A DNA stretch of 64,000 nt. It comes from Alphaproteobacteria bacterium UBA3635. Its GTDB lineage: Bacteria; Pseudomonadota; Alphaproteobacteria; Rs-D84. The position numbers and the translations under genes were made by a program. Below the pieces are notes generated by a model. That model searched no databases, was not told the origin of the DNA, and was given only the letters and a program-made list of their open reading frames with translations. The DNA lies in the NCBI GenBank assembly GCA_002373935.1, contig DFKW01000012.1:4814-68813 (forward strand), written 5' to 3'. Every line of letters starts with the position of its first letter. The first letter of the stretch is position 1. Positions 10,511 through 57,103 of the stretch are shown one piece after another.

Positions 10511-10583
10511 CCACAACTGAACTTTGCACTTCCGTTACCGCGGCGCGGTACCGCGACGGGCTGAAAACTGAACACTGTTAAAA
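10511..10583. repeat. Heptad-repeat composite element, copy E1
   Basis: ccacaactgaactttgcact, then a GC-rich palindrome (taccgcg g cgcggta), then ctgaaaactgaacactgt. The left 20-mer matches 23943-23962 at 19 of 20 nt. Confidence 0.55.
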
Positions 10584-20592: not shown

Positions 20593-21870
20593 ATGAAAAA
20601 CGAAACACGCCCTTTGGCCGACCAAATGCGTCCTGAAACAATCGATGAAATTGTTGGGCAATCCAATTTATTGGGCGAAAATGGATTGATTCGTCGCATG
20701 GTTGATAATCAAAAACTATCAAACATTATTCTGTGGGGACCGCCGGGATGCGGCAAAACAACAATCGCCCGCGCATTGGCGCATACCGTTGACATGGACT
20801 TTGTTCCAATGTCCGCCGTATTTTCCGGTTCGGCGGATATTAAACGCGCGATGGATGCCGCCCGCATGAATCGCGATATCGGCCGTAGCACACTGTTATT
20901 CATCGACGAAATTCATCGATTTAACAAAACCCAACAAGATACATTATTGCCATATTTGGAAGACGGCACGGTTGTGTTCATCGGCGCAACCACCGAAAAC
21001 CCCAGTTTTAATTTAAACAACGCGTTGCTGTCGCGTTGCCATATTGGGGTATTGACGGCATTGGGCACCGACGATTTAATGGTTTTAATCGAACGCGCCG
21101 AAAAATTTTTGGGCAAAAAATTACCACTGACCCGTGATGCAAAAATCCACCTGGCACAAATGGCGGACGGCGACGCACGATTTTTATTAAATACCATTGA
21201 ATACATCAGCAACGCAAATTTCAAACACGACCTGGACAATGATGCGTTAGACAACGCAATACAAAAACGTCCACCATTGTCGGACAAAACCGGTGACGAA
21301 CATTATAATTTAATATCTGCGGTGCATAAATCATTGCGCGCATCCGACACCGACGCGGCGTTATATTGGGTTGCCCGTATGATGACATCGGGCCAGGACG
21401 CAAAATACATTTTCCGTCGCCTTACCCGATTCGCAATGGAAGATGTGGGCTTGGCGGACCCGAACGCATTATCTGTTGCAATCGCCGCATGGAACGCATA
21501 CGAAAGGTTGGGCAGTCCCGAAGGCGATATCGCATTGACCGAGTTAGTTGTGTATTTGGGCACCGCCCCAAAAAGCAACGCATGCGACCGCGCAATTCAC
21601 GCATCATATAAATCTGCGCATGACACGGGCAGTTTGCCCCCACCCAAAAACATATTAAACGCACCAACAAAAATGATGAAAAATATGGGATACGGTGCGG
21701 GATACATATACGAACCGGACACCGCATTGGGTTTTTCGGGTCAAAATTGTTTTCCCGAAAAAATGCAACGCACACGTTTTTATACGCCCGTCGAACGCGG
21801 ATTTGAACGCGAAATAAAAAAGCGTATTGATTACTGGGACGGTTTGCGCGAAAAATTAAACAAAAAATAA
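20593..21870 (+). CDS. rarA: Replication-associated recombination protein A (AAA+ ATPase)
   Basis: 425 aa with Walker A GPPGCGKTT, LFIDEIHRFNK and the MgsA C-terminal domain (HYNLISAVHKSLR). Confidence 0.9.
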   Translation: MKNETRPLADQMRPETIDEIVGQSNLLGENGLIRRMVDNQKLSNIILWGPPGCGKTTIARALAHTVDMDFVPMSAVFSGSADIKRAMDAARMNRDIGRSTLLFIDEIHRFNKTQQDTLLPYLEDGTVVFIGATTENPSFNLNNALLSRCHIGVLTALGTDDLMVLIERAEKFLGKKLPLTRDAKIHLAQMADGDARFLLNTIEYISNANFKHDLDNDALDNAIQKRPPLSDKTGDEHYNLISAVHKSLRASDTDAALYWVARMMTSGQDAKYIFRRLTRFAMEDVGLADPNALSVAIAAWNAYERLGSPEGDIALTELVVYLGTAPKSNACDRAIHASYKSAHDTGSLPPPKNILNAPTKMMKNMGYGAGYIYEPDTALGFSGQNCFPEKMQRTRFYTPVERGFEREIKKRIDYWDGLREKLNKK

Positions 21871-21892
21871 AAAGTGCCAAATGGCACTTTTT
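21869..21892. terminator. Bidirectional terminator between rarA and the OMP gene
   Basis: aaagtgcc aaat ggcacttt flanked by A- and T-runs. Confidence 0.6.
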
Positions 21893-21893
21893 A

Positions 21894-22619
21894 TTAAAAC
21901 AAAATATTCAAATACAACCCGACGGTTGATTCTGATTTTTCCCACTCGTACGCGTATGTTGCGCCATATTGCGTGCGACCAAATTGTTTAACCAATTTTA
22001 ATTTTAACCACTCGCGATCAAAATCGTCGTTTGTCGCAACACGCGCCGTAAATTCGGCACCCGCACGCCAACCGTCAATCATACGGAAATAAACCTCGGG
22101 GATAAAATCGATATACGACATACCACGCGTATCATCAAATACCCATGTTGATTTAACCGTTCCGGCCAAAGTCAGACCTGCCCATTGGCGTCCCACACGC
22201 AGTCCGGCAAAATAACTGGATTTTGCAAAGTCCGGTTCACGCACATGACGATTTCCGGCAAACCGCGCACCGAACAAAACATCCGTTGACACACGCGCCG
22301 AATTATCATCCGCCAATCCCGCACGATATACGCCACCCAATTCAATACTGGAAAAACCGCGTTCTTTGCGCGCACGCACAAAATCAAATTGATAATGCAC
22401 ATTTGCATTTGCCATCAACCGATTATTCAGACCATATGAAAACGATTGTCCCAAACGCAATAAATCATTTCCGTATGTCGCATCTGTTGTCGATAACAAA
22501 TGTTCGGTATCCAACATATACAATGGGTCGGATGTATCAACCGACAACATTTCACCCGCATCTGCGTACGCGGCATGACACACACATACCGCGCACAATG
22601 CACTATATAACCATTTCAT
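21894..22619 (-). CDS. Outer-membrane beta-barrel protein (unknown family)
   Basis: 241 aa with a signal peptide (ALCAVCVCHAAYA), alternating-hydrophobicity strands and a C-terminal ...YLNILF. Confidence 0.5.
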   Translation of the reverse strand: MKWLYSALCAVCVCHAAYADAGEMLSVDTSDPLYMLDTEHLLSTTDATYGNDLLRLGQSFSYGLNNRLMANANVHYQFDFVRARKERGFSSIELGGVYRAGLADDNSARVSTDVLFGARFAGNRHVREPDFAKSSYFAGLRVGRQWAGLTLAGTVKSTWVFDDTRGMSYIDFIPEVYFRMIDGWRAGAEFTARVATNDDFDREWLKLKLVKQFGRTQYGATYAYEWEKSESTVGLYLNILF

Positions 22620-22639
22620 ATTTTATTACCTTTGGCGCA

Positions 22640-23797
22640 TTAAAATTGGAATATAACCTGGGCACCCACAGACCACTCGTGCGGTTTGGATATTTCGACA
22701 TTATATGTCGTCGCCGCGTTCCAATTGTCCGCCGTCAATGGCAAATTACCCGCATACAAATCTAAAACTTTACCTTTGGCACTGTCGTAAATTGATGTTT
22801 TCGCATACAGGTTCAACGCGAACCAATCATTTGGTTGCCAACCGAACGCACCCTTGATAGACGCCTGGTTATGCCAATCATAAAAACCGTACATACCTTC
22901 GACATTTAATGTCCAATCTTCGGCGAGTACCGTCCATACACCGGCACCCAATTCACCCATGAATAATGTTTTATCTGCATCACCATATTTCAACATTCCC
23001 CACGACATTTCTTCTGGAACTTCCATATAATCGCCATAGATGTCACCCTCCATGTCAACAATCCATGCGCGTCCCAAACCATAAATTGTAGATGTTGCAA
23101 CCTTATACCCCAGCTTTAAATCACCGATAAAGTAATCAACGCCATGTTTTTGATGTTCGTAATATCCGGACAAAGTAGAAATCCATTTATCGTTATCAAC
23201 GATACGACCCTGGATACCCAAACCATACAAATTCAAATCATCGTTTTTGTATTTATCTTGGTCACCGGTAGAATTTGTCCATGTCAATTTATCCCAGTTA
23301 TATTTTGCCATACCCTGGATTGCGATACGGTCGGTCAAACCGAAACTGATATCTTCTTTGAGGGACCATTCAGTCAACTTTCTGTCCACATCGGCAAATT
23401 TATATTTACCCTGCATATATTCCAATGTTGTGACCGAACCAAATTGACCCTGTAACGGTTGATAAAACGGATTTGCCAAGAAATATTTGCGTTTCGCCGA
23501 TTTATACACATCCCCCGGCACATATGTACGTTTAGATGTCATAACCGGTGCCGTTTTGACATATCCCGATTCCATATTGTCATACATGCCCGAACGCGAC
23601 ACAGTGTGATGCGCCGCCGAACGGACGCGCGAATCCGAATAAGAATCATACGAACTGCGGTTTATTTTGATTGTATCACCATCCGCATTACGCATATCGA
23701 TACTGGAATACATAGAACTGCGTGACGAGGCCGCCGACGCATCCAACGCCGCAACGCAACCCAACACCGCACAAAAACCAAATAAATTTTTTTTCAT
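22640..23797 (-). CDS. Outer-membrane beta-barrel protein (unknown family)
   Basis: Start MKKNLFGFCAVLGCVAALDASA with RBS aaaggag. It is rich in aromatic residues and Gly and ends ...GAQVIFQF. Confidence 0.5.
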   Translation of the reverse strand: MKKNLFGFCAVLGCVAALDASAASSRSSMYSSIDMRNADGDTIKINRSSYDSYSDSRVRSAAHHTVSRSGMYDNMESGYVKTAPVMTSKRTYVPGDVYKSAKRKYFLANPFYQPLQGQFGSVTTLEYMQGKYKFADVDRKLTEWSLKEDISFGLTDRIAIQGMAKYNWDKLTWTNSTGDQDKYKNDDLNLYGLGIQGRIVDNDKWISTLSGYYEHQKHGVDYFIGDLKLGYKVATSTIYGLGRAWIVDMEGDIYGDYMEVPEEMSWGMLKYGDADKTLFMGELGAGVWTVLAEDWTLNVEGMYGFYDWHNQASIKGAFGWQPNDWFALNLYAKTSIYDSAKGKVLDLYAGNLPLTADNWNAATTYNVEISKPHEWSVGAQVIFQF

Positions 23798-23942
23798 TAA
23801 AAACTCCTTTTCTACCCGGATTATAACACAATTTAATAATCTATAAAAGCCCAAAATTACAATTTTACAAAATGATTAAAATACGCAAAACCACACAAAT
23901 TCTGTCCCAAAGATTATAACGACGAGAAATAAAATAATATTT

Positions 23943-24016
23943 CCACAACTGAACTCTGCACTCTGCAATCGCGGCTCGCCTTTTGGCGAGACGGATGAAC
24001 ACTGTAAACTGTAAAA
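23943..24016. repeat. Heptad-repeat composite element, copy E2
   Basis: ccacaactgaact ctgcact ctgcaat, then hairpin ctcgcc tttt ggcgag, then atgaaca ctgtaaa ctgtaaa. Same architecture as 10511-10583. Confidence 0.55.
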
Positions 24017-24115
24017 TAGTTATAACGGTATAGATGCGCGGTTGTTTGCGAGTGCAGTGTACAAAACGTACATAAACGAGCAAACAACAAGCAGATATGC
24101 CATTATAACTATTTT
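24013..24115. repeat. 103-nt palindromic element, copy A, abutting the ftsK stop codon
   Basis: Outer stem is 13 bp and perfect (aaaatagttataa / ttataactatttt). Inner stem is 9 bp (gttgtttgc / gcaaacaac). The apical 30-mer is shared with 50476-50579 at 27 of 30 nt. Confidence 0.7.
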
Positions 24116-26321
24116 ACAATATGTGGCGTTTGTTATTTGCGTCAGGCGCACTCACCACCCCCTCTTGTTCCATACGTTCCATAAATCCGGCGGCCTTGTT
24201 ATAACCAATGCCCAAACGCCGCTGTATGTATGAAATAGTGGGCTTTTTATCACGCAAAACAATCTCTTTGGCCTGGGTATATAAATCACCATCTTTGGCG
24301 GCTTTGGTTTCTGCGGCCGATGGCGCCCCAGATGCACCACCCTCTTCATCCGCGATATCTGTGACACCGGCGGCATATTCGGGTTCCGCCATATTACGCA
24401 AGAAATCACCAATGCGTGTCAATTCTTCGTCCGAAATAAATGCCGCATGGATACGCACAGGAACGCGGCCCGCCTCGCTGAATAACATATCACCCATTGC
24501 CAGCAATTGTTCTGCGCCCTTTTCACCCAATGTGGTCATAGAATCAATCACACTGCGCGCCTGGAACGAAACACGTGTCGGGAAATTCGCCTTGATAACA
24601 CCGGTAATTGTTGTGGCGTCCGGCCTCTGGGTTGCCATAACCAAATGGATTCCCGCCGCACGCGCCTTTTGTGCAATGCGTTGAACACACGCCTCGACCT
24701 CTTTGCGTGCCAAAGACATCAAATCTGCAACCTCGTCAATAATTATCACGATATACGGCATATCGGACAAATCAACCTCTTGGGTTTCAAACAGTAATTC
24801 ACCGGTCTCTTCGTCCGTTCCGACCGCAACCTGTTGAGTGATTTTTTCACCCGCCTCGCGCTTGGCGGCAACAATTTCATTATAACTTTCGATATTGCGT
24901 GCGTTCACAACTTGCAATTGTTTATAACGTTCCTCCATTTCACGCACCGCCCATTTCAATGCATTCACAGCCGCCGCCGGGTCTAATTTTACAATCGGCG
25001 TAATCAAATGTGGTATGTCATCCCAGAATCCAAAATCAACACCTTTTGGGTCAATAATAATCAGTTTGCATTTATCCGGTGTAAAATGATAAACAATCGA
25101 TGTGATAATCGTTTGCACGAATACAGATTTACCCGACCCCGTGCGTCCGGCAATCAACATGTGTGGCATTTTTGCCAAATCAAAATACATTGGGTTTCCA
25201 CCAATATCCACACCCAACGCCAATGGAATTTTATAACGTGAATTTACAAATATATCGTTTTCAATCAGTCCACGGAACCGCACCGTTTGGCGTTTCAAAT
25301 TCACCATTTCCACACCAATCAGTTGCGTTGACGGAATATGCGCAATACGAATATTTTCCGTCGCCATGGCACGTGTCATATCCTTTACTGTTTTTGTCAC
25401 ATCGGCGATTTTTGTTCCGTCATCTGGCATAAATTCATACAGTGTCACAATTGGTCCGGGCCGAATACCGGTGACAGTTCCATGCACATTATATTGTGCA
25501 AAATGCACCTCCATCGCTTCGGCGTTGCGTTTTAATTCCGGTGTCACAATATTTTTCCCAAATACAGATTTTTCCAAAAACGCCGGATCCGGCAATTCAT
25601 ATTCAACAACCGCATCGGCACGCGCCACACGACGCACGGTGCGTTTTTTCTTTGGCTTTTCTTCAACCTCGGGCTCGTCGGTCTCCTCTTCTGCCTCGGT
25701 CTCTTCTTCTTCATCTTCTATATCTTCACGCATGGGCAAAATATGAAACGCCGACAACACCCATCGAATTGTTCCCCACGCGATTTTTGCCACGCGCACA
25801 ACATAAGACCATTTTATATTCAGCAACACCCCCGCCATCCACAAAAAACCAACAAAAGACAAAACACCAAACGCAATTTGCCAATTACCAACCAACGCAC
25901 CAACATCCGCCGACACAATTGCGCCCAACATACCACCAAACGATGAATTTGGCACCAACATCCCCAAACCCATACATCCCATACACAGTGCGATAAACCC
26001 ACGCAAAATATTATATTCCGGGGTGGCTTCGTCATTTCGTCCACCGATAAAATATACCCCGCCACGCATCAGGCATAAAAACAAAAACATCATCGGAATA
26101 AATCCGAAAACATATCGCATAAACGCGATAAAATTACCCATTATTCCATGACTGCCAAATGTACTGGAAACGGCCCAGCCATCCAAATACGGGTTATGAA
26201 ACACCGCCGCCAAAACCGCAAACACACCAAACACAAACATACACCCGCCCAACAAACGCCAGGCCAAGTCCTTTAACGCCCCAGATAACTTTTCCGGTAA
26301 AAATCTTGATTTTTCACTCAT
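24114..26321 (-). CDS. ftsK: DNA translocase FtsK
   Basis: 735 aa with N-terminal TM helices, an acidic linker, the motor domain with Walker A GRTGSGKS and a gamma winged-helix domain (ISYIQRRLGIGYNKAAGFMERME). Confidence 0.92.
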   Translation of the reverse strand: MSEKSRFLPEKLSGALKDLAWRLLGGCMFVFGVFAVLAAVFHNPYLDGWAVSSTFGSHGIMGNFIAFMRYVFGFIPMMFLFLCLMRGGVYFIGGRNDEATPEYNILRGFIALCMGCMGLGMLVPNSSFGGMLGAIVSADVGALVGNWQIAFGVLSFVGFLWMAGVLLNIKWSYVVRVAKIAWGTIRWVLSAFHILPMREDIEDEEEETEAEEETDEPEVEEKPKKKRTVRRVARADAVVEYELPDPAFLEKSVFGKNIVTPELKRNAEAMEVHFAQYNVHGTVTGIRPGPIVTLYEFMPDDGTKIADVTKTVKDMTRAMATENIRIAHIPSTQLIGVEMVNLKRQTVRFRGLIENDIFVNSRYKIPLALGVDIGGNPMYFDLAKMPHMLIAGRTGSGKSVFVQTIITSIVYHFTPDKCKLIIIDPKGVDFGFWDDIPHLITPIVKLDPAAAVNALKWAVREMEERYKQLQVVNARNIESYNEIVAAKREAGEKITQQVAVGTDEETGELLFETQEVDLSDMPYIVIIIDEVADLMSLARKEVEACVQRIAQKARAAGIHLVMATQRPDATTITGVIKANFPTRVSFQARSVIDSMTTLGEKGAEQLLAMGDMLFSEAGRVPVRIHAAFISDEELTRIGDFLRNMAEPEYAAGVTDIADEEGGASGAPSAAETKAAKDGDLYTQAKEIVLRDKKPTISYIQRRLGIGYNKAAGFMERMEQEGVVSAPDANNKRHIL

Positions 26322-26364
26322 ACCCCGATTATACCATAAAAAATCCTAAAATTAAAGGGAGTTC

Positions 26365-26392
26365 AAAATAAAAACCGACGAAAATTCGTCGG
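26365..26392 (-). terminator. Rho-independent terminator after the PAP2 gene
   Basis: On the minus strand, ccgacgaa tt ttcgtcgg is followed by tttttatttt. Confidence 0.55.
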
Positions 26393-26398
26393 CATTAT

Positions 26399-27103
26399 TT
26401 ATTTTATCCGTCGCACAATCGACAATACAAAATCGGCGGCAACCATACCAATAAACGCACCCAACAAAACATCTGTTGGCCAATGCGCACCAATCGCCAC
26501 ACGCGACAAACCAATTAAAATTGCCAATCCCCATGTTAAAATTTTGAACCGCGGCATCAACATCCCCAACATAACCAAACCGGCAAACGATAATGCGGTA
26601 TGTCCTGACGGCATGGAATTAAATGCCCACTCAAATGTTCCGGGGAAAAACCCGACAATTCCAAATTCATCGAAAAATATAGGACGCGCACGACCAATTA
26701 TAAATTTCAATACCTCGACAACAATACCCGACAAAATCAACGAGCAAAACACCAAAAACGCATTACTGTTTTTCAATTTCGCATACGCATCCCGCGTCAG
26801 AAATTTTATATTAAACCAATGCATATGCGTTGTCGGATCATTTCGCAAATCATAAGTTTTTTTCAAATACATCACAATTGTTGCCAAACCAAAAACAATA
26901 ATCCAAACCTTGGCATCGAAAATATTTGCGAACCAACGCCACGCGACATAATTATATTGCGTCAAAAATAAATACATCGGGATATCATACCATAAAACAC
27001 CCAACACGATTGCCGCCATCACAACCAATGTCGCCACAATCAAAAGTTTCCACCGAAGAGTATTTTGTTTTGAAATAAACATCATCACCACCCTATTCTG
27101 CAA
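26399..27103 (-). CDS. PAP2-family membrane phosphatase
   Basis: KFIIGRARP, MPSGHT and SRVAIGAHWPTDV match the three acid-phosphatase motifs. Multi-TM protein. Confidence 0.75.
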   Translation of the reverse strand: MQNRVVMMFISKQNTLRWKLLIVATLVVMAAIVLGVLWYDIPMYLFLTQYNYVAWRWFANIFDAKVWIIVFGLATIVMYLKKTYDLRNDPTTHMHWFNIKFLTRDAYAKLKNSNAFLVFCSLILSGIVVEVLKFIIGRARPIFFDEFGIVGFFPGTFEWAFNSMPSGHTALSFAGLVMLGMLMPRFKILTWGLAILIGLSRVAIGAHWPTDVLLGAFIGMVAADFVLSIVRRIK

Positions 27104-28562
27104 TCAGACGATTATAAATCACTTTATCTGTTAAAATTTTTGTTGCAACCGCAGACGCCATCATATCTTCATCATCACCACTAGAAAACATTGGGCAACC
27201 GCGACGCACGGCGGCAACATCGATATTTTTATTTTTGTTAAAATCTTGAATATTAAAATCGTTATTTATTACATTTACAAAGAACGCATTTTGCTGGCGC
27301 GATGAACGAATATTCGACAAACACACAATCGGGAACACACCACGCGAATCCAATGACATCCCCGCACCCGATTTAATAGATTTATTTAACAATTCCAACG
27401 CACCACCATTTGATAAATCAATATGACTTGCAATACGCGCAGACCCGGCGGTCGGTGTTCCAACCAACACCCCGCGATTGTTTTCATAAATCGACGACGC
27501 AATCGCCTCGGGCGTGCCACGGGTCGTATTTGATATCAACACAACAACCGGTGCATCCGTCGCGGCATCACCTCCGGGCACATACTCAACATCTTCGCCG
27601 GCGGTCTGACTGACGCGCATGATGGGTTTTGCACCCAAAAACAACCCCGCCAATTTTGTCGCAGATTTCGCATCCACACCCGACGCCGCACGCAAATCTA
27701 AAATAATCCCGGTGGCGTTTTGATATTTAGACAATGCCTCGTTCACAATATTGACGGCATTATCGGTCACATCGTTCACAATAATTTCCAAAATACCACC
27801 ATTATCAATTGGACGGAAAATAATATCCGCATCGGTCAAAACAATCGTCGCGCGACGCAGAACAACACTGCGATTACCCGTTGGTGTCAGCAAATGTAAT
27901 TTTGCCGTTCCACTGTTTAACCCTTGGAATACGATGTTTAATTCTGCATCTGACATATCGCGCACATTTTTTCCATTTATCACATCAATCAAATCATATT
28001 GATTGATTCCCGCCGCATCTGCCGGCGAACCGCCGATAATTGACCCGACACGGAAATTACCGCGTTCGTCGCGCCATCCAGAAATACCAACACTGGTCAA
28101 AATGCGATTGTTATTATTTGTCATCAATTTTTGTTTTGGAATATATTTACCACTTTCATCAATACCCTGCATCAATGCATCAAACGCGCGCTCGTAAATT
28201 TCATCCGTTCCTAACGCCGCCAACGCATCATCCCGGTCGCGCATTTTATCAATCAACGCAGTTGTGATTTTACCATACCCCACCCAATCACCCGCGCGTG
28301 GTTGTGCAAAATTTCCAACAATAGAATCACGCCACACCAAAATAATACGGTCATCTGTCGCCGCCAGATGTGCATGCGGACTTAAATTTTCTAAACTTTC
28401 AATCACGACACCAATGTTTTTACCACCCCATTGCACAGAATCCAATTTTTCATAAATTTCTGCGAATGTTCCAACCGCGGCATCATCGACACCGACATCG
28501 GCGCGCGCGACACATACGGTCAATGCTATTAGCCCTGAACAAATTATTGTTGATATTTTCAT
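27093..28562 (-). CDS. S41 (C-terminal processing peptidase)-like periplasmic protein with a PDZ domain; catalytic dyad apparently substituted
   Basis: Start MKISTIICSGLIALTVCVARA with RBS aaggagg. PDZ segment GGSPADAAGINQYDLIDVINGKNV. ILDLRAASG is present. SNTTRGTPEAIA stands in place of the SASASE motif, and TPTAGSA in place of TFGKG. Confidence 0.7.
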   Translation of the reverse strand: MKISTIICSGLIALTVCVARADVGVDDAAVGTFAEIYEKLDSVQWGGKNIGVVIESLENLSPHAHLAATDDRIILVWRDSIVGNFAQPRAGDWVGYGKITTALIDKMRDRDDALAALGTDEIYERAFDALMQGIDESGKYIPKQKLMTNNNNRILTSVGISGWRDERGNFRVGSIIGGSPADAAGINQYDLIDVINGKNVRDMSDAELNIVFQGLNSGTAKLHLLTPTGNRSVVLRRATIVLTDADIIFRPIDNGGILEIIVNDVTDNAVNIVNEALSKYQNATGIILDLRAASGVDAKSATKLAGLFLGAKPIMRVSQTAGEDVEYVPGGDAATDAPVVVLISNTTRGTPEAIASSIYENNRGVLVGTPTAGSARIASHIDLSNGGALELLNKSIKSGAGMSLDSRGVFPIVCLSNIRSSRQQNAFFVNVINNDFNIQDFNKNKNIDVAAVRRGCPMFSSGDDEDMMASAVATKILTDKVIYNRLIAE

Positions 28563-28593
28563 GCGCGCCCTCCTTTGCATCGACCGCCCGTGT

Positions 28594-29457
28594 TTAATAT
28601 TTTGTTTCGCGTAAATTAAAGTGATACAAAATAACATTAGAAATATAAATCGATGTCAGTGTTCCCATCACAACCGAAAAAGTCATTGCAATTGCAAAAT
28701 CACGCAACATCAATCCACCAAACGCATATAAACCGACCATCGCCAAAATTGTTGAAATACTGGTCATCAATGTTCGGCGCATCATTTCATTGACCGACAA
28801 ATCAATTAAATCATCCATCGGCATTTTGTGATATTTATTTATATTTTCATCAATTCGGTCATAGTTCACGACCTTGTCATTAATAGAATACCCAATACCC
28901 ATCAAAATAACCGCGATTGCCGTTTGGTTAAATTCCAACCCGGTGATTGAAAAGAACCCAAACATCAACACAAAATCCAACACCAACGACACAAACGAAC
29001 CAACCGCATAACCGCCGCGATACCGAATCCAGATATAAACACTCATCAACACGAACGAAACCAACACCGCCAAAATACCACCGCGTATCAGTTCACCACC
29101 AATTTTTGGTCCAACAATTTGCACCTGGGAATAAGAAACATTGTCGCCCAAAATATTTTTAATTTGTGCCACACGTTCGTTTTGTTGTATGTCCGTCGAA
29201 CCCTTGGGCAAACCGACACGCACCAAAATTGCACCATCATCCACAGATTGCAATTCGGGTTTAAATTCCGCCAACGCGGCACGCATTTTATCAATGGTGT
29301 AATCCGCGACAATGGGTTTAACCTCCATCGATATACCACCCGAAAAGTCAATACCATAATTTAATCCACGAAATATTAAACACAAAACCGACAATACAAC
29401 CAATGCACCCGATATCCAATACGATAACTTGCGATATTTCATAAAGTGTAAATTCAT
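28594..29457 (-). CDS. secF: Protein translocase subunit SecF
   Basis: Start at MNLHFMKYRKLSYW, with an alternative ATG at 29466. It has GIDFSGG and 6 TM helices and lies downstream of secD. Confidence 0.85.
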   Translation of the reverse strand: MNLHFMKYRKLSYWISGALVVLSVLCLIFRGLNYGIDFSGGISMEVKPIVADYTIDKMRAALAEFKPELQSVDDGAILVRVGLPKGSTDIQQNERVAQIKNILGDNVSYSQVQIVGPKIGGELIRGGILAVLVSFVLMSVYIWIRYRGGYAVGSFVSLVLDFVLMFGFFSITGLEFNQTAIAVILMGIGYSINDKVVNYDRIDENINKYHKMPMDDLIDLSVNEMMRRTLMTSISTILAMVGLYAFGGLMLRDFAIAMTFSVVMGTLTSIYISNVILYHFNLRETKY

Positions 29458-35649: not shown

Positions 35650-36518
35650 ATTATATTGATATTTTCTTAGAGGCATTGGTTGCGGAACGCGGGCGCAGTG
35701 AAAAAACAATCGCAAGTTATGCATCTGACCTGAATCATGCAAACGATGCATTACCACACGGATTAATGGATGCGACCGCGGACGAAATACAAAACTATTT
35801 ATCCTCGCTTTCCGACCGCGCGTCATCTATTGCCCGCAAGGCAAGCGCTCTGCGTGGATTTTATAAATTTTTAATGCTGGAAAAAATAATCACAACCAAC
35901 CCGACAAAAAATATCGAATTACCAAAGCGCGCACGTCCATTACCAAAATTATTATCGGTTGAAGAAATCGAATTATTGATATCATCGGCGGGGGACACAA
36001 AAAATTCCACCCGTTTGCGCGCGATGTTGGAATTGGTATATGCATCGGGATTGCGCGTATCTGAATTATGTGAATTACCCATGACATCAATCTTGGGCGA
36101 CCATTTATTGGTTCATGGCAAGGGCGCCAAAGAACGCATGGTTCCAATGCACGCGGGCGCAATTGATGCATTAAACAAATGGTTGGCATTGCGCGGGGAC
36201 ACCGATTCGAAATATGTATTTCCCGGTTCTGGCAAAACCGGCCACATAACACGCGACGGATTTTTCAAAATATTAAAAAAATGTGCGATATTGGCGGGCA
36301 TTGACCCGAACCATGTATCACCGCATGTCCTGCGTCACTCGTTCGCGTCACACTTGTTATCACACGGTGCGAATTTGCGTGCGATACAAACTATGTTGGG
36401 ACACGAAGATATTTCAACAACTCAAATCTATACACATGTTTTACCGGAACAATTACGCGAAACGGTTGAAACATATCATCCATTATCAAATAACAAGCCC
36501 AAGGTTAAAGAACAATGA
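35646..36518 (+). CDS. xerD: Tyrosine recombinase XerD/XerC
   Basis: 290 aa with the R..HxxR..Y catalytic set (SGLRVSEL, HVLRHSFASHLL, GHEDISTTQIYTHV). Confidence 0.85.
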   Translation: MNYIDIFLEALVAERGRSEKTIASYASDLNHANDALPHGLMDATADEIQNYLSSLSDRASSIARKASALRGFYKFLMLEKIITTNPTKNIELPKRARPLPKLLSVEEIELLISSAGDTKNSTRLRAMLELVYASGLRVSELCELPMTSILGDHLLVHGKGAKERMVPMHAGAIDALNKWLALRGDTDSKYVFPGSGKTGHITRDGFFKILKKCAILAGIDPNHVSPHVLRHSFASHLLSHGANLRAIQTMLGHEDISTTQIYTHVLPEQLRETVETYHPLSNNKPKVKEQ

Positions 36519-50407: not shown

Positions 50408-50475
50408 GTATGATAAAAAATAAAAAAAACAAACACCCCCGCAAATCAAATATCGATAGACACCCACAAATTCAG

Positions 50476-50579
50476 CTATGGAAATATAACGAGGTGGATA
50501 CGCCGTTGTTTATGAGTGCAGTGTACAAATGCTACATAAACGAATAAACAACAAGTAGACGCCCGTTATATTTTCATAG
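50476..50579. repeat. 104-nt palindromic element, copy B, abutting the MFS-gene stop codon
   Basis: Outer stem is 16 bp (ctatggaaatataacg / cgttatattttcatag, one G-T pair). Inner stem is 9 bp (gttgtttat / ataaacaac). The apex gagtgcagtgtacaaatgctacataaacga is shared with copy A. Confidence 0.7.
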
Positions 50580-51812
50580 TTATTTGCGGGACAACATCAA
50601 CAAAGTAAACGCACACACTGCAATCGAAACCACCCAAACCGCGGATGTCACGCCGGTTACGGCAATGCACGCGGCACCCAAAATCGGGGCGATAACCTTG
50701 GGCAGGTAAGATGTCGTTTTGAACACACCATAAAAACGCGATTGTTCGCTTTTTTGGGTATTATCAAAGAAAAACAAATCATGTACCGGTTCCATAAACG
50801 CCCCGGATATCTGCCACAGAATAAACACCGCCAACAACGAATAACCACTTAAAAACATTGCCAATGTTGCAAACACCGCAAACGACGCCATACCAATCGT
50901 CATCAAAACACGCGGTCCAACCCGCCGCACCAGGTTTCCAATAAACAAATCAAAAATAATATACGGCAAAATACCCAATGTCAAAACCCAACCCAAAACA
51001 CCGGCAGAAAACCCCTGCTCTATCACAACAATAGGCACATACAAAACACGCATCGCCGACAACGCATAAAATCCGAAATTCACCGCATACGCACGCGGCA
51101 TGCCTTGCCGACGGAAAAACAGTAAAGTATTCACCCATAATGATTTCATCGTGCGACGCGGATTTACATTTTTAATTTCTTTATCCATTTGCACAATACC
51201 GAACCGTTTGAAAAACAGCAACCCACCCGCATAAATCATCGCCGATGCCAAAAACGGAATACGATAATTATCAAACCATGCCGCCATATTTAACGCGAAC
51301 AGTGGCGCAATCAACGCACCAATATTCACCCACAAATAATACCGTGCATTTAATTTAGCCATCCCGATATTTTTTGAAAAATCCGCCATAAACAATGGAA
51401 TTAAAATACCAACAATTGTTGACCCAATACCCGACACCCAATCCAAAGTCATAAATGTTATTGGTTTGACCGAAAAACTCATCATTGCATAGCATACAAC
51501 CACCAACAAAAATGCGGCATATAATAAACGTGCCTTGGAAAACCAACGCAATAATTCTTTGGAAAACACACCAACAATCATACAAAACACAGAATACATC
51601 GCGACATAAATACCAACCACCGACGACGCCAGATTTTCATTTCCCAAAATACCTGTAAAAATTCCCAATATAACCAAAGAATAAACCGCATTATACACCC
51701 CCGACGCAAACCCCGTGAACAACCCCAGGTTTGCAAACGAATACCCATCAACATTTTCATTTATCGCGATGTATTTTTCTTTTGCCAAAATTCTCTCTCC
51801 ATTATTTGCCAA
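50580..51812 (-). CDS. MFS-type transporter
   Basis: 410 aa with about 12 predicted TM helices in a 6+6 arrangement. Substrate unknown. Confidence 0.65.
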   Translation of the reverse strand: MANNGERILAKEKYIAINENVDGYSFANLGLFTGFASGVYNAVYSLVILGIFTGILGNENLASSVVGIYVAMYSVFCMIVGVFSKELLRWFSKARLLYAAFLLVVVCYAMMSFSVKPITFMTLDWVSGIGSTIVGILIPLFMADFSKNIGMAKLNARYYLWVNIGALIAPLFALNMAAWFDNYRIPFLASAMIYAGGLLFFKRFGIVQMDKEIKNVNPRRTMKSLWVNTLLFFRRQGMPRAYAVNFGFYALSAMRVLYVPIVVIEQGFSAGVLGWVLTLGILPYIIFDLFIGNLVRRVGPRVLMTIGMASFAVFATLAMFLSGYSLLAVFILWQISGAFMEPVHDLFFFDNTQKSEQSRFYGVFKTTSYLPKVIAPILGAACIAVTGVTSAVWVVSIAVCAFTLLMLSRK

Positions 51813-53987: not shown

Positions 53988-54017
53988 AACTGAACTTTGA
54001 ACTTTGAACTTTGAAAA
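53988..54017. repeat. Heptad tandem repeat, copy E3
   Basis: aac tgaactt tgaactt tgaactt tgaaaaa. Three exact 7-nt units. Confidence 0.6.
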
Positions 54018-57071: not shown

Positions 57072-57103
57072 AACTGAACTTTGAACTCTGCACTCTGAAC
57101 ACT
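57072..57103. repeat. Heptad-repeat element, copy E4
   Basis: aa ctgaact ttgaact ctgcact ctgaaca ct. It shares the 15-mer gaactctgcactctg with E2. Confidence 0.6.

What the first reader, a model, noticed from the sequence alone, without database searches (positions are those of the whole stretch)
24013..24115. 103-nt palindromic element with a conserved apex and covarying stems, fused to the ftsK stop codon
What the sequence shows:
- Outer stem: aaaatagttataa (24013-24025) pairs perfectly with ttataactatttt (24103-24115).
- Inner stem: gttgtttgc (24041-24049) pairs with gcaaacaac (24080-24088).
- Apex: the roughly 30-nt apex is gagtgcagtgtacaaaacgtacataaacga, and it contains a small tgtac/gtaca hairpin.

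Comparison with the second copy at 50476-50579:
- The apex is kept at 27 of 30 nt.
- Both stems have different sequences that still pair. The inner stem becomes gttgtttat/ataaacaac and the outer stem becomes ctatggaaatataacg/cgttatattttcatag.

In both copies the right arm touches the stop codon of a minus-strand gene, in the same orientation. A conserved loop with compensatory stem changes indicates selection on a fold. Candidate explanations are a structured 3'-UTR or terminator RNA, a protein-binding hairpin, or an RPE/REP-like miniature mobile element. I do not recognise it as a known family.
Basis: seen in the sequence. Interest (0 to 1): 0.65.

Follow-up and report, generated by a model that had tools for sequence, protein, structure and literature searches.

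The report
Replication-oriented hairpin repeat on stop codons
The 103-base palindrome after ftsK is one copy of a hairpin-forming DNA repeat that small-genome gut bacteria place on gene stop codons, always pointing the same way relative to DNA replication; what it does is still inferred.

Summary
In detail: both copies exist at the stated coordinates and fold far better than shuffles.

They belong to a family:
- 10 copies in this 858-kb genome.
- Matches in 84 of 101 genomes of the genus.
- No Rfam family.

This scan has already reported the same family several times on other genomes, which earlier notes call Candidatus Enterousia.

On 91 copies from 38 genomes I found:
- Covariation in 37 of 39 pairs.
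- All 91 copies have the same strand on the C-rich strand, which is the leading-strand template.
- 76 of 91 sit on the stop codon of a leading-strand gene. The stop is TAA in 70 of the 72 typed.
- At the ftsK stop, relatives carry this element (8 of 29) or an ordinary hairpin plus T-run terminator (13 of 29).

The strand that folds best is the C-rich one, antisense to the abutting gene. It carries the wobble pairs and conserved tandem G.A pairs, and is more stable in 75-80 of 86 copies.

No Y1/RAYT, reverse transcriptase or integron integrase accounts for the family. The 22-nt tip recurs in other alphaproteobacterial families.

Function and mode of spread are inferred only.

The parts
24010..24118 (+). 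Copy A, whole hairpin. The folded (model-sense) strand is +, the C-rich strand here.
   Evidence: Fold; covariance model R1 scores 126.6 bits.
24054..24075 (+). Copy A, 22-nt tip: GCAGTGTA, a 7-nt loop region, then TACATAA. This is the most conserved module of the family.
   Evidence: Alignment A3. The same tip pattern occurs in other alphaproteobacterial families.
24032..24035 (+). Copy A, left AGAT of the symmetric AGAT/AGAT internal motif. It forms tandem G.A pairs with 24093-24096, next to the 3-bp helix TGC (24035-24037) / GCA (24091-24093).
   Evidence: Column counts: A31 in 90 of 91, G112 in 84 of 91, A113 in 85 of 91.
24093..24096 (+). Copy A, right AGAT of the tandem G.A motif.
24041..24088 (+). 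Copy A, variable 9-bp stem (24041-24049 with 24080-24088) enclosing the apex.
   Evidence: All 9 pairs of this helix change on both sides across the family.
24114..24116 (-). TAA stop codon of ftsK, paired inside the base of the hairpin.
50474..50581 (+). Copy B, whole hairpin as folded.
   Evidence: Fold; R1 scores 127.3 bits.
50518..50539 (+). Copy B, 22-nt tip.
50580..50582 (-). TAA stop codon of the 410-aa MFS transporter gene, directly next to the right arm of copy B.

Best explanation
The element is one member of a dispersed family of imperfect palindromic repeats, about 105-120 nt long, in this genus of small-genome gut Alphaproteobacteria.

Anatomy, in order from the outside in:
- an AT-rich outer stem that usually contains or touches a TAA stop codon;
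- a conserved symmetric AGAT/AGAT internal motif (tandem G.A pairs);
- a freely varying 9-bp stem;
- a nearly invariant 22-nt tip.

Copies are locked to the direction of replication. The strand that forms the better hairpin is always the C-rich strand, that is, the leading-strand template.

My reading is that this is a DNA-level repeat of the REP type. It is kept or placed by a replication-coupled, single-strand process that uses an unidentified host factor, and that factor recognises the tip and the G.A motifs. Because the element occupies the slot where relatives have ordinary intrinsic terminators, and has an A-rich 5' arm and a T-rich 3' arm on both strands, it most likely also serves as the transcript-end hairpin of the flanking genes (a terminator, a 3'-end protector, or both).

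Shown: family membership, covariation, strand polarity, stop-codon placement, and alternation with terminators at the ftsK site.

Inferred: termination, the host factor, and the way copies arise.
For: Family:
- 10 copies in the genome.
- 84 of 101 genus genomes have a match at E <= 0.001.

Structure:
- 93.4% of 3449 cells are paired, against 69.9% in shuffles and 33-47% with slid partners.
- 37 of 39 pairs change on both sides.

Polarity:
- 91 of 91 copies from 38 genomes have the model-sense strand on the locally C-rich strand; 20-kb skew is -0.055 to -0.26.
- The skew is of the replication type. Minority-strand genes have negative GC3 skew and non-coding DNA follows the contig.

Folded strand:
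- 170 G.U against 55 A.C cells.
- At the three pairs that switch between A-U and G-C, there are 54 G.U intermediates against 7 A.C. This is opposite to what C-to-T bias on the G-rich strand would produce.
- The conserved AGAT/AGAT motif gives tandem G.A on this strand and pyrimidine mismatches on the other.
- This strand is the more stable in 75 of 86 copies with RNA parameters and 80 of 86 with DNA parameters.

Placement:
- 72 of 91 copies have a leading-strand ORF of at least 90 aa ending in the arm, and 4 more have a 75-aa ORF doing so.
- Stops are 70 TAA, 2 TAG and 0 TGA, against 585 TAA of 740 background leading-strand ORFs.

Terminator slot:
- Of 29 relatives' ftsK ends, 8 carry the family, 13 carry a hairpin plus T-run directly after the stop, and 8 carry neither (my reading of the printed sequences; the model detects 7 of the 8).
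- No other terminator-like site is called between ftsK or the MFS gene and the next gene.

Enzymes:
- Y1_Tnp is in 1 of 101 genomes.
- RVT_1 is in 34 of 101 and not in this genome.
- Integron integrase is over cut-off in 0 of 101.
Against: - There is no expression or 3'-end evidence. The two metatranscriptome runs gave contigs only on the downstream 404-aa gene (22336-23767) and none on the element, and contigs cannot show ends.
- The hairpin lacks the GC-rich stem directly followed by a T-run that defines an intrinsic terminator, and the simple scan does not call it one.
- I found no terminal inverted repeats shared between copies, no target duplication and no mobilising enzyme, so mobility is inferred. 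The inference rests on presence or absence at orthologous sites, tandem and truncated copies and near-identical copies at different loci.
- Template switching within a palindrome could create compensatory changes without any selection on a fold.
- The 60 regions examined came from the best-scoring 150 of about 500 matches, and related genomes are not independent.
Confidence: 0.55

Rival explanations
1. It is a purely cis-acting RNA structure of the upstream gene, a structured 3'-UTR or unusual intrinsic terminator, and the covariation reflects selection on that mRNA hairpin.
For: The element sits on the stop codon and alternates with ordinary terminators at the ftsK site. The mRNA-sense strand still folds strongly, mean -39.7 kcal/mol. 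The 3' arm is U-rich.
Against: - The mRNA-sense strand is the worse-folding one in 75 of 86 copies.
- That strand carries A.C and pyrimidine-pyrimidine mismatches where the other strand has G.U and G.A.
- Copies lying only among lagging-strand genes keep the replication polarity, not the gene polarity. There are five such copies at three loci: the 474/199-aa locus in two genomes, L052, and L049:12022 with L071:9950. L079:14013 also lies between two lagging-strand ORFs but is 87 nt beyond a start and 350 nt short of a stop, so it does not test the rule.
- A bare terminator has no reason to keep an invariant tip.
Confidence: 0.15
2. It is a small RNA gene or antisense RNA transcribed from the C-rich strand, the strand that carries the wobble and G.A features, and acts on the 3' end of the convergent gene or in trans.
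For: The structural signals lie on that strand. The tip is conserved across alphaproteobacterial families, as an RNA recognised by a conserved protein would be.
Against: - The scans call no + strand promoter-like site upstream of either hairpin; the only + strand call, in copy B, lies inside the element's 3' half, and the totals are no higher than in shuffles.
- Flanks upstream of the sense strand are not conserved.
- No RNA contig covers the element.
- 91 of 91 polarity relative to replication is not expected of an sRNA gene.
- Tandem and truncated copies look like repeat DNA.
Confidence: 0.1
3. It is a selfish non-autonomous mobile element (a MITE or REPIN-like element) with no host function. 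It merely survives best just after stop codons, in the orientation that is least harmful to replication.
For: - Presence or absence at orthologous sites.
- Tandem arrays, truncated copies and a nested mosaic at C1:4238-4530.
- Two about 90% identical copies at unrelated loci.
- In another alphaproteobacterial genus, G162 and G333, a 145-nt family of near-identical copies with shared ends carries the same tip in either orientation.
Against: - No shared terminal repeats and no direct target duplication at the two window copies.
- No Y1 transposase.
- Copies in one genome are mostly old and divergent, yet keep pairing and loops.
- The same gene ends are occupied in many species; for example 189-, 238-, 125- and 532-aa ORFs recur.
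Confidence: 0.15
4. It is an attC-like single-strand recombination site for a tyrosine recombinase, kept on the leading-strand template to stay quiet, as in sedentary chromosomal integrons.
For: The structure is conserved while the stems vary, and the element lies directly after ORFs. [quoted passage not shown]
Against: - Integron integrase is over its curated cut-off in 0 of 101 genomes; only Xer-like recombinases are present.
- The conserved parts are the centre and internal loops, not terminal core sites.
- The flanking genes are syntenic housekeeping genes (ftsK, recA), not cassettes.
Confidence: 0.05

Closest known systems
REP / BIME / REPIN elements with RAYT (Y1 HUH) transposases
   Same: Both are dispersed extragenic imperfect palindromes at gene ends, often in tandem mosaics. 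Pairing is kept while sequence drifts. The tip reads G-T/C/A-A-G directly before a small hairpin, which resembles the GTAG plus hairpin of REPs (that REP feature is recalled, not tested).
   Different: - No RAYT: Y1_Tnp is in 1 of 101 genus genomes and not in this one.
- About 10 copies per genome, not hundreds.
- The unit is a single 105-120 nt multi-helix hairpin with a conserved centre.
- Polarity relative to replication is absolute, with the better-folding strand on the leading-strand template. IS200/IS605 relatives have their active strand on the lagging-strand template (PMC5027513, passages read).
Integron attC sites (for example Vibrio VCRs)
   Same: Both are imperfect palindromes of about 60-130 nt right after ORFs. 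Structure is conserved more than sequence, and one strand folds better. In sedentary integrons the folding strand lies on the leading-strand template (PMC5371416).
   Different: No integron integrase, no cassette array, a conserved centre in place of conserved ends, and syntenic housekeeping genes as neighbours.
Rho-independent (bidirectional) transcription terminators
   Same: It occupies the same slot directly after the stop codon and alternates with terminators at the ftsK site. Both strands have an A-rich 5' arm and a T-rich 3' arm.
   Different: The hairpin is about 100 nt with internal loops and an AT-rich base. There is no GC-rich stem abutting a free T-run, and the terminator scan does not call it. 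The tip sequence is conserved and the element has replication polarity.
Rickettsia palindromic elements (RPE) and other alphaproteobacterial palindromic repeats (recalled from knowledge; no sequence compared here)
   Same: They are 100-150 nt palindromic repeats without a transposase in reduced alphaproteobacterial genomes.
   Different: RPEs are known for in-frame insertion into genes, and I recall no strand polarity. Here 76 of 91 copies lie at stop codons and all 91 are polar. No sequence comparison with RPEs was made.

Membership tests
REP/REPIN with RAYT | A RAYT (Y1_Tnp, PF01797) gene in the genomes that carry the repeat | tested here: not met
   1 of 101 genus genomes, none in this genome. 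The search does find the family in 6 of 14 control genomes.
REP/REPIN with RAYT | A short palindrome preceded by a conserved GTAG (feature recalled) | tested here: inconclusive
   the tip begins GTAG in 38, GCAG in 26 and GAAG in 17 of the 91 rows. It lies at the centre of a larger hairpin, not at the 5' end of a repeat unit.
MITE (transposase-derived) | Terminal inverted repeats shared by copies, and a direct target-site duplication | tested here: not met
   Outer arms differ between copies. The flanks of A read TAA...TTA, an inverted pair, and B has no direct repeat.
Integron attC | An integron integrase (TIGR02249) in the genome | tested here: not met
   0 of 101 genomes over the curated cut-off of 265 bits; the best score is about 80 bits, at Xer-like level.
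Integron attC | Conserved core sites at the two ends of the hairpin (RYYYAAC ... GTTRRRY; motif recalled) | tested here: not met
   I read copies A and B. The arms hold TTATAAC/GTTATAA-like words that do not fit the pattern, and conservation lies in the centre.
Intrinsic terminator | A GC-rich stem followed at once by a T-run | tested here: not met
   call no terminator-like site at either copy. The T-rich run is part of the paired AT-rich outer arm.
Intrinsic terminator | RNA 3' ends at the element | not testable with these tools
   Only contigs of RNA runs were on hand, and none covers the element.
Any Rfam family | A score at or above a family's gathering threshold | tested here: not met
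   0 matches in the window; the best match is a generic miRNA-precursor hairpin at 32 bits against a threshold of 101; none in six loci of other lineages.
Enterousia gene-end hairpin repeat (family named only in this scan's earlier notes) | About 105-120 nt hairpin, invariant tip, covarying stems, on stop codons, one polarity relative to GC skew | tested here: met

The most novel reading that the evidence does not exclude
The element works as single-stranded DNA, not as RNA. It would be a hairpin of the leading-strand-template or nascent-lagging-strand sequence, stabilised by tandem G.A and G.T pairs, and read by a factor conserved across Alphaproteobacteria.

On this reading it is either a polar structural signal for a replication-linked process (a structural counterpart of short polar words such as Chi or KOPS), or a repeat that copies itself when a stable hairpin single strand anneals at the fork like an Okazaki fragment. 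The second option would explain three things at once: the absolute polarity, the lack of any transposase, and the exchange of whole cores between copies.
Probability: 0.12. Interest if true: 0.85.

Novelty: new variant of a known kind. Interest (0 to 1): 0.6.

Why it matters
Interspersed palindromic repeats are common, but their origin and role are usually unclear.

This family combines three features that are unusual together:
- Absolute orientation relative to replication: 91 of 91 copies, and 8 of 8 in a second alphaproteobacterial family that carries the same tip.
- Structural constraint on the strand that is not the mRNA of the neighbouring gene.
- No recognisable mobilising enzyme.

The genomes are under 1 Mb, where useless DNA is normally lost. 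The family also stands in for ordinary terminators at conserved housekeeping genes.

If the polarity reflects a mechanism, it points to a replication-coupled way of making or keeping hairpin repeats that differs from the Y1-transposase route. If it reflects function, it points to a host factor, shared by many Alphaproteobacteria, that reads a 22-nt hairpin tip.

Tried and rejected
1. RNA evidence. One search listed two metatranscriptome runs and one doubtful RNA run with small shares. Laid on window 21000-29000, X19 and X20 (the two runs on record as RNA) give contigs that cover mainly the 404-aa gene (22336-23767) and none touches the element; the run labelled probably DNA covers other parts, and has a piece with a loose end at 24109 beside the element. 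Contigs cannot show ends or strand, so nothing follows. The DNA run X2 only shows contig breaks and a rearranged copy at the repeat.

2. Known RNA families. None found.

3. Y1/RAYT, reverse transcriptase and integron integrase as mobilisers. All rejected. RVT_1 is absent from this genome and from many carriers.

4. A promoter inside the element. The arm holds TATAAT-like words, but the scans give no more promoter-like sites than shuffles. I did not pursue it.

5. A link between the apex word GAGTGCAG and the (RAGTKCA)n heptad arrays nearby. The arrays are a separate family: 41 arrays, not polar. Most copies of the hairpin family do not have that word. I treat the link as coincidence.

6. How far coding bases are paired into the stem. 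My automatic estimate was unreliable. It breaks at the tandem G.A motif and at local palindromes, so I use only the three ftsK cases read by eye.

7. Chromosome-wide distribution. One search shows one orientation per contig in five contiguous genomes. No contig spans an origin or terminus with copies on both sides, so the expected flip was not observed.

8. Literature. The search 'Enterousia' gave 16 papers. In PMC12306168 the words repeat, palindrom, terminator and hairpin do not occur (find mode only). A six-term search on palindromic repeats, stop codon, leading strand and Alphaproteobacteria gave nothing relevant in the listing. I therefore found no description in print, and I searched only this library. 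Supplementary files were not consulted.

9. The name Candidatus Enterousia / order Rs-D84 comes from earlier notes of this scan, not from a test of mine.

Full report
**Observation.**
- The two apices differ at 3 of 30 positions, all in the terminal loop.
- The + strand pieces fold at -52.9 and -46.9 kcal/mol, with z -10.3 and -8.2. None of 200 shuffles does as well.
- The right arm of copy A overlaps the TAA of a 735-aa ORF that Pfam identifies as FtsK.
- Copy B abuts the TAA of a 410-aa MFS transporter gene, and recA follows.

**A family, not a pair.** A covariance model built from six copies finds 10 copies in the 858-kb assembly. Their places are two on C10, six on C1 and two on C13.
- The model matches 84 of 101 sampled genomes of the genus, about 500 matches in all.
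- Rfam has nothing at gathering level for the window. A permissive scan gives only generic miRNA-precursor hairpins far below threshold.
- Earlier notes of this scan describe the same family on other genomes and name the genus Candidatus Enterousia. I treated those notes as leads and re-tested their main claims.

**Structure.** I fetched 60 regions of up to 20 kb from 37 relatives. They were chosen from the 150 best of about 500 matches. With the window and two regions of contig C1 they gave 91 copies plus one reverse-strand self-hit.
- On this alignment 93.4% of cells pair, against 69.9% in shuffles and 33-47% with slid partners.
- 37 of 39 pairs show changes on both sides. The alignment was fitted to the model, which favours it somewhat.
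- The conserved unpaired parts are the tip (G-Y/A-AGTGTA, loop, TACAT-R-A) and a symmetric AGAT/AGAT motif next to a 3-bp helix. A second AGAT/AGAT occurs in the outer stem of one subtype.

**Which strand folds.** Four observations agree that the constraint lies on the strand I call sense, which is the + strand in the window.
- It carries 170 G.U cells against 55 A.C. Without the invariant tip pair the count is 90 against 55.
- At the three pairs that alternate between A-U and G-C, the intermediates are G.U 54 times and A.C 7 times.
- The AGAT/AGAT motif gives tandem G.A pairs on this strand and pyrimidine mismatches on the other.
- This strand is the more stable in 75 of 86 copies with RNA parameters and 80 of 86 with DNA parameters. 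The mean differences are 7.6 and 3.5 kcal/mol.

This is the C-rich strand, so deamination bias would have produced the opposite pattern.

**Polarity.** In all 91 copies the sense strand is the locally C-rich strand. The skew is replication-type: genes on the minority strand have negative GC3 skew, and non-coding DNA follows the contig. The better-folding strand is therefore the leading-strand template, and it is antisense to the abutting gene.

**Placement.**
- 72 of 91 copies have a leading-strand ORF of at least 90 aa ending in the 3' arm.
- Four more have a 75-aa ORF there.
- Seven are inner members of tandem arrays.
- Eight lie elsewhere.
- Five of those eight lie only among lagging-strand genes, at three loci, and all keep the replication polarity. 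One of these loci is C1:38847 in this genome with its orthologue L036 in G042.
- L079:14013 also lies between two lagging-strand ORFs. It is 87 nt beyond a start and 350 nt short of a stop, so it does not test the rule.
- Orientation therefore follows the chromosome strand, not the gene. This rests on few independent loci.
- Stop codons are 70 TAA, 2 TAG and 0 TGA. Background leading-strand ORFs have 585 TAA of 740.

**The ftsK site across the genus.** This is my reading of the sequences printed, for 29 relatives.
- Eight carry the family directly on a TAA stop. The model itself detects seven of them.
- 13 have an ordinary hairpin plus T-run there.
- Eight have neither.
- In three genomes the distal arm pairs with the last coding bases of ftsK: 2 nt here, about 5 in G018 and 9 in G042. 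The non-coding arm therefore matches native coding sequence.
- No other terminator-like site is called between the upstream and downstream genes at either window copy.

**Mobility and enzymes.**
- Copies come and go at orthologous sites and form tandem or truncated arrays.
- At C1:4238-4530 they form a nested mosaic in which half of one copy is duplicated.
- Copies A and B have no shared terminal repeats and no direct target duplication.
- Y1_Tnp is in 1 of 101 genomes.
- RVT_1 is in 34 of 101 and not in this genome.
- Integron integrase is over cut-off in 0 of 101.

**Beyond the genus.** I searched the tip pattern in a sample of 400 other genomes of the class.
- It occurs in 17 of them, and in two or more copies in 11. 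The reversed control never exceeds one.
- One of these genomes, G140, is unpublished and contributes only its count.
- In G320, from another family with a 1.4-Mb genome, 8 of 8 copies have the tip-sense strand on the C-rich strand, and 7 of 8 fold better on that strand.
- In G162 the tip crowns near-identical 145-nt copies with shared ends. Orientation there is mixed and there is no fold asymmetry.
- Polarity and strand asymmetry go together in these three lineages. The tip is a module shared by different repeat families.

**Comparison with known systems.**
- IS200/IS605 elements, whose sub-terminal hairpins REPs resemble (abstract of PMC3333891 in the listing), have their active strand on the lagging-strand template (PMC5027513, passages). 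That is the opposite of what is seen here.
- attC sites of sedentary integrons have their folding strand on the leading-strand template (PMC5371416, passages), as here. The integrase and the conserved end sites are missing.
- The element is best filed as a new variant of the interspersed palindromic repeat kind.

**Limits.**
- There is no transcript evidence.
- No closed genome shows the expected flip at the origin or terminus.
- Related genomes are not independent samples.
- ORFs were called by a simple longest-ORF script, not by a gene finder.

Noticed in passing
window 23950-23963, 57075-57095, 53991-54011, 10518-10531; 41 arrays genome-wide: Tandem heptad arrays (RAGTKCA)n form a second repeat family: 41 arrays of two or more units against 0 for the reversed control. 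They are mostly intergenic, often between a small hairpin and the next gene's promoter region. They are not polar: 25 lie on the G-rich strand and 15 on the C-rich strand. They share an 8-mer with the apex of copies A and B, probably by chance.
   Followed up: partly
window 23975-23990: A small 6-bp hairpin (ctcgcc tttt ggcgag) without a T-run lies between copy A and the heptads. Similar hairpin-plus-heptad modules precede other genes, for example on contigs C5 and C4.
   Followed up: no
G000 contig C1:4238-4530 (locus L001): A mosaic cluster behind a 273-aa gene holds a full copy, a second copy lacking its own distal arm, and a duplicated half of the first copy. The duplicated half breaks off just after the GAGTGCAG word of the apex. 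Orthologous loci in G042, G018 and G087 also hold arrays.
   Followed up: partly
loci L113-L119 (G162) and L101 (G333): Another alphaproteobacterial genus (2.5-Mb genomes) has 9-12 near-identical 145-nt palindromic elements with shared ends and the same 22-nt tip, in either orientation.
   Followed up: partly
loci L105-L112 (G320): A 1.4-Mb, 33% GC alphaproteobacterium of another family has at least 8 hairpin repeats of about 105 nt with long perfect stems and the same tip. All 8 have the tip-sense strand on the C-rich strand.
   Followed up: partly
window about 36237-36449 (C10:41050-41262): A 295-aa Xer-like tyrosine recombinase gene lies about 12 kb from ftsK. It keeps that distance in many relatives, for example G042, G087 and G018.
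   Followed up: no
window 22640-23854 (-): The 404-aa gene downstream of copy A has no Pfam match. It is the only part of 21000-29000 that the two metatranscriptome runs cover with contigs of several hundred bases; elsewhere they give pieces of 18-196 bases.
   Followed up: no
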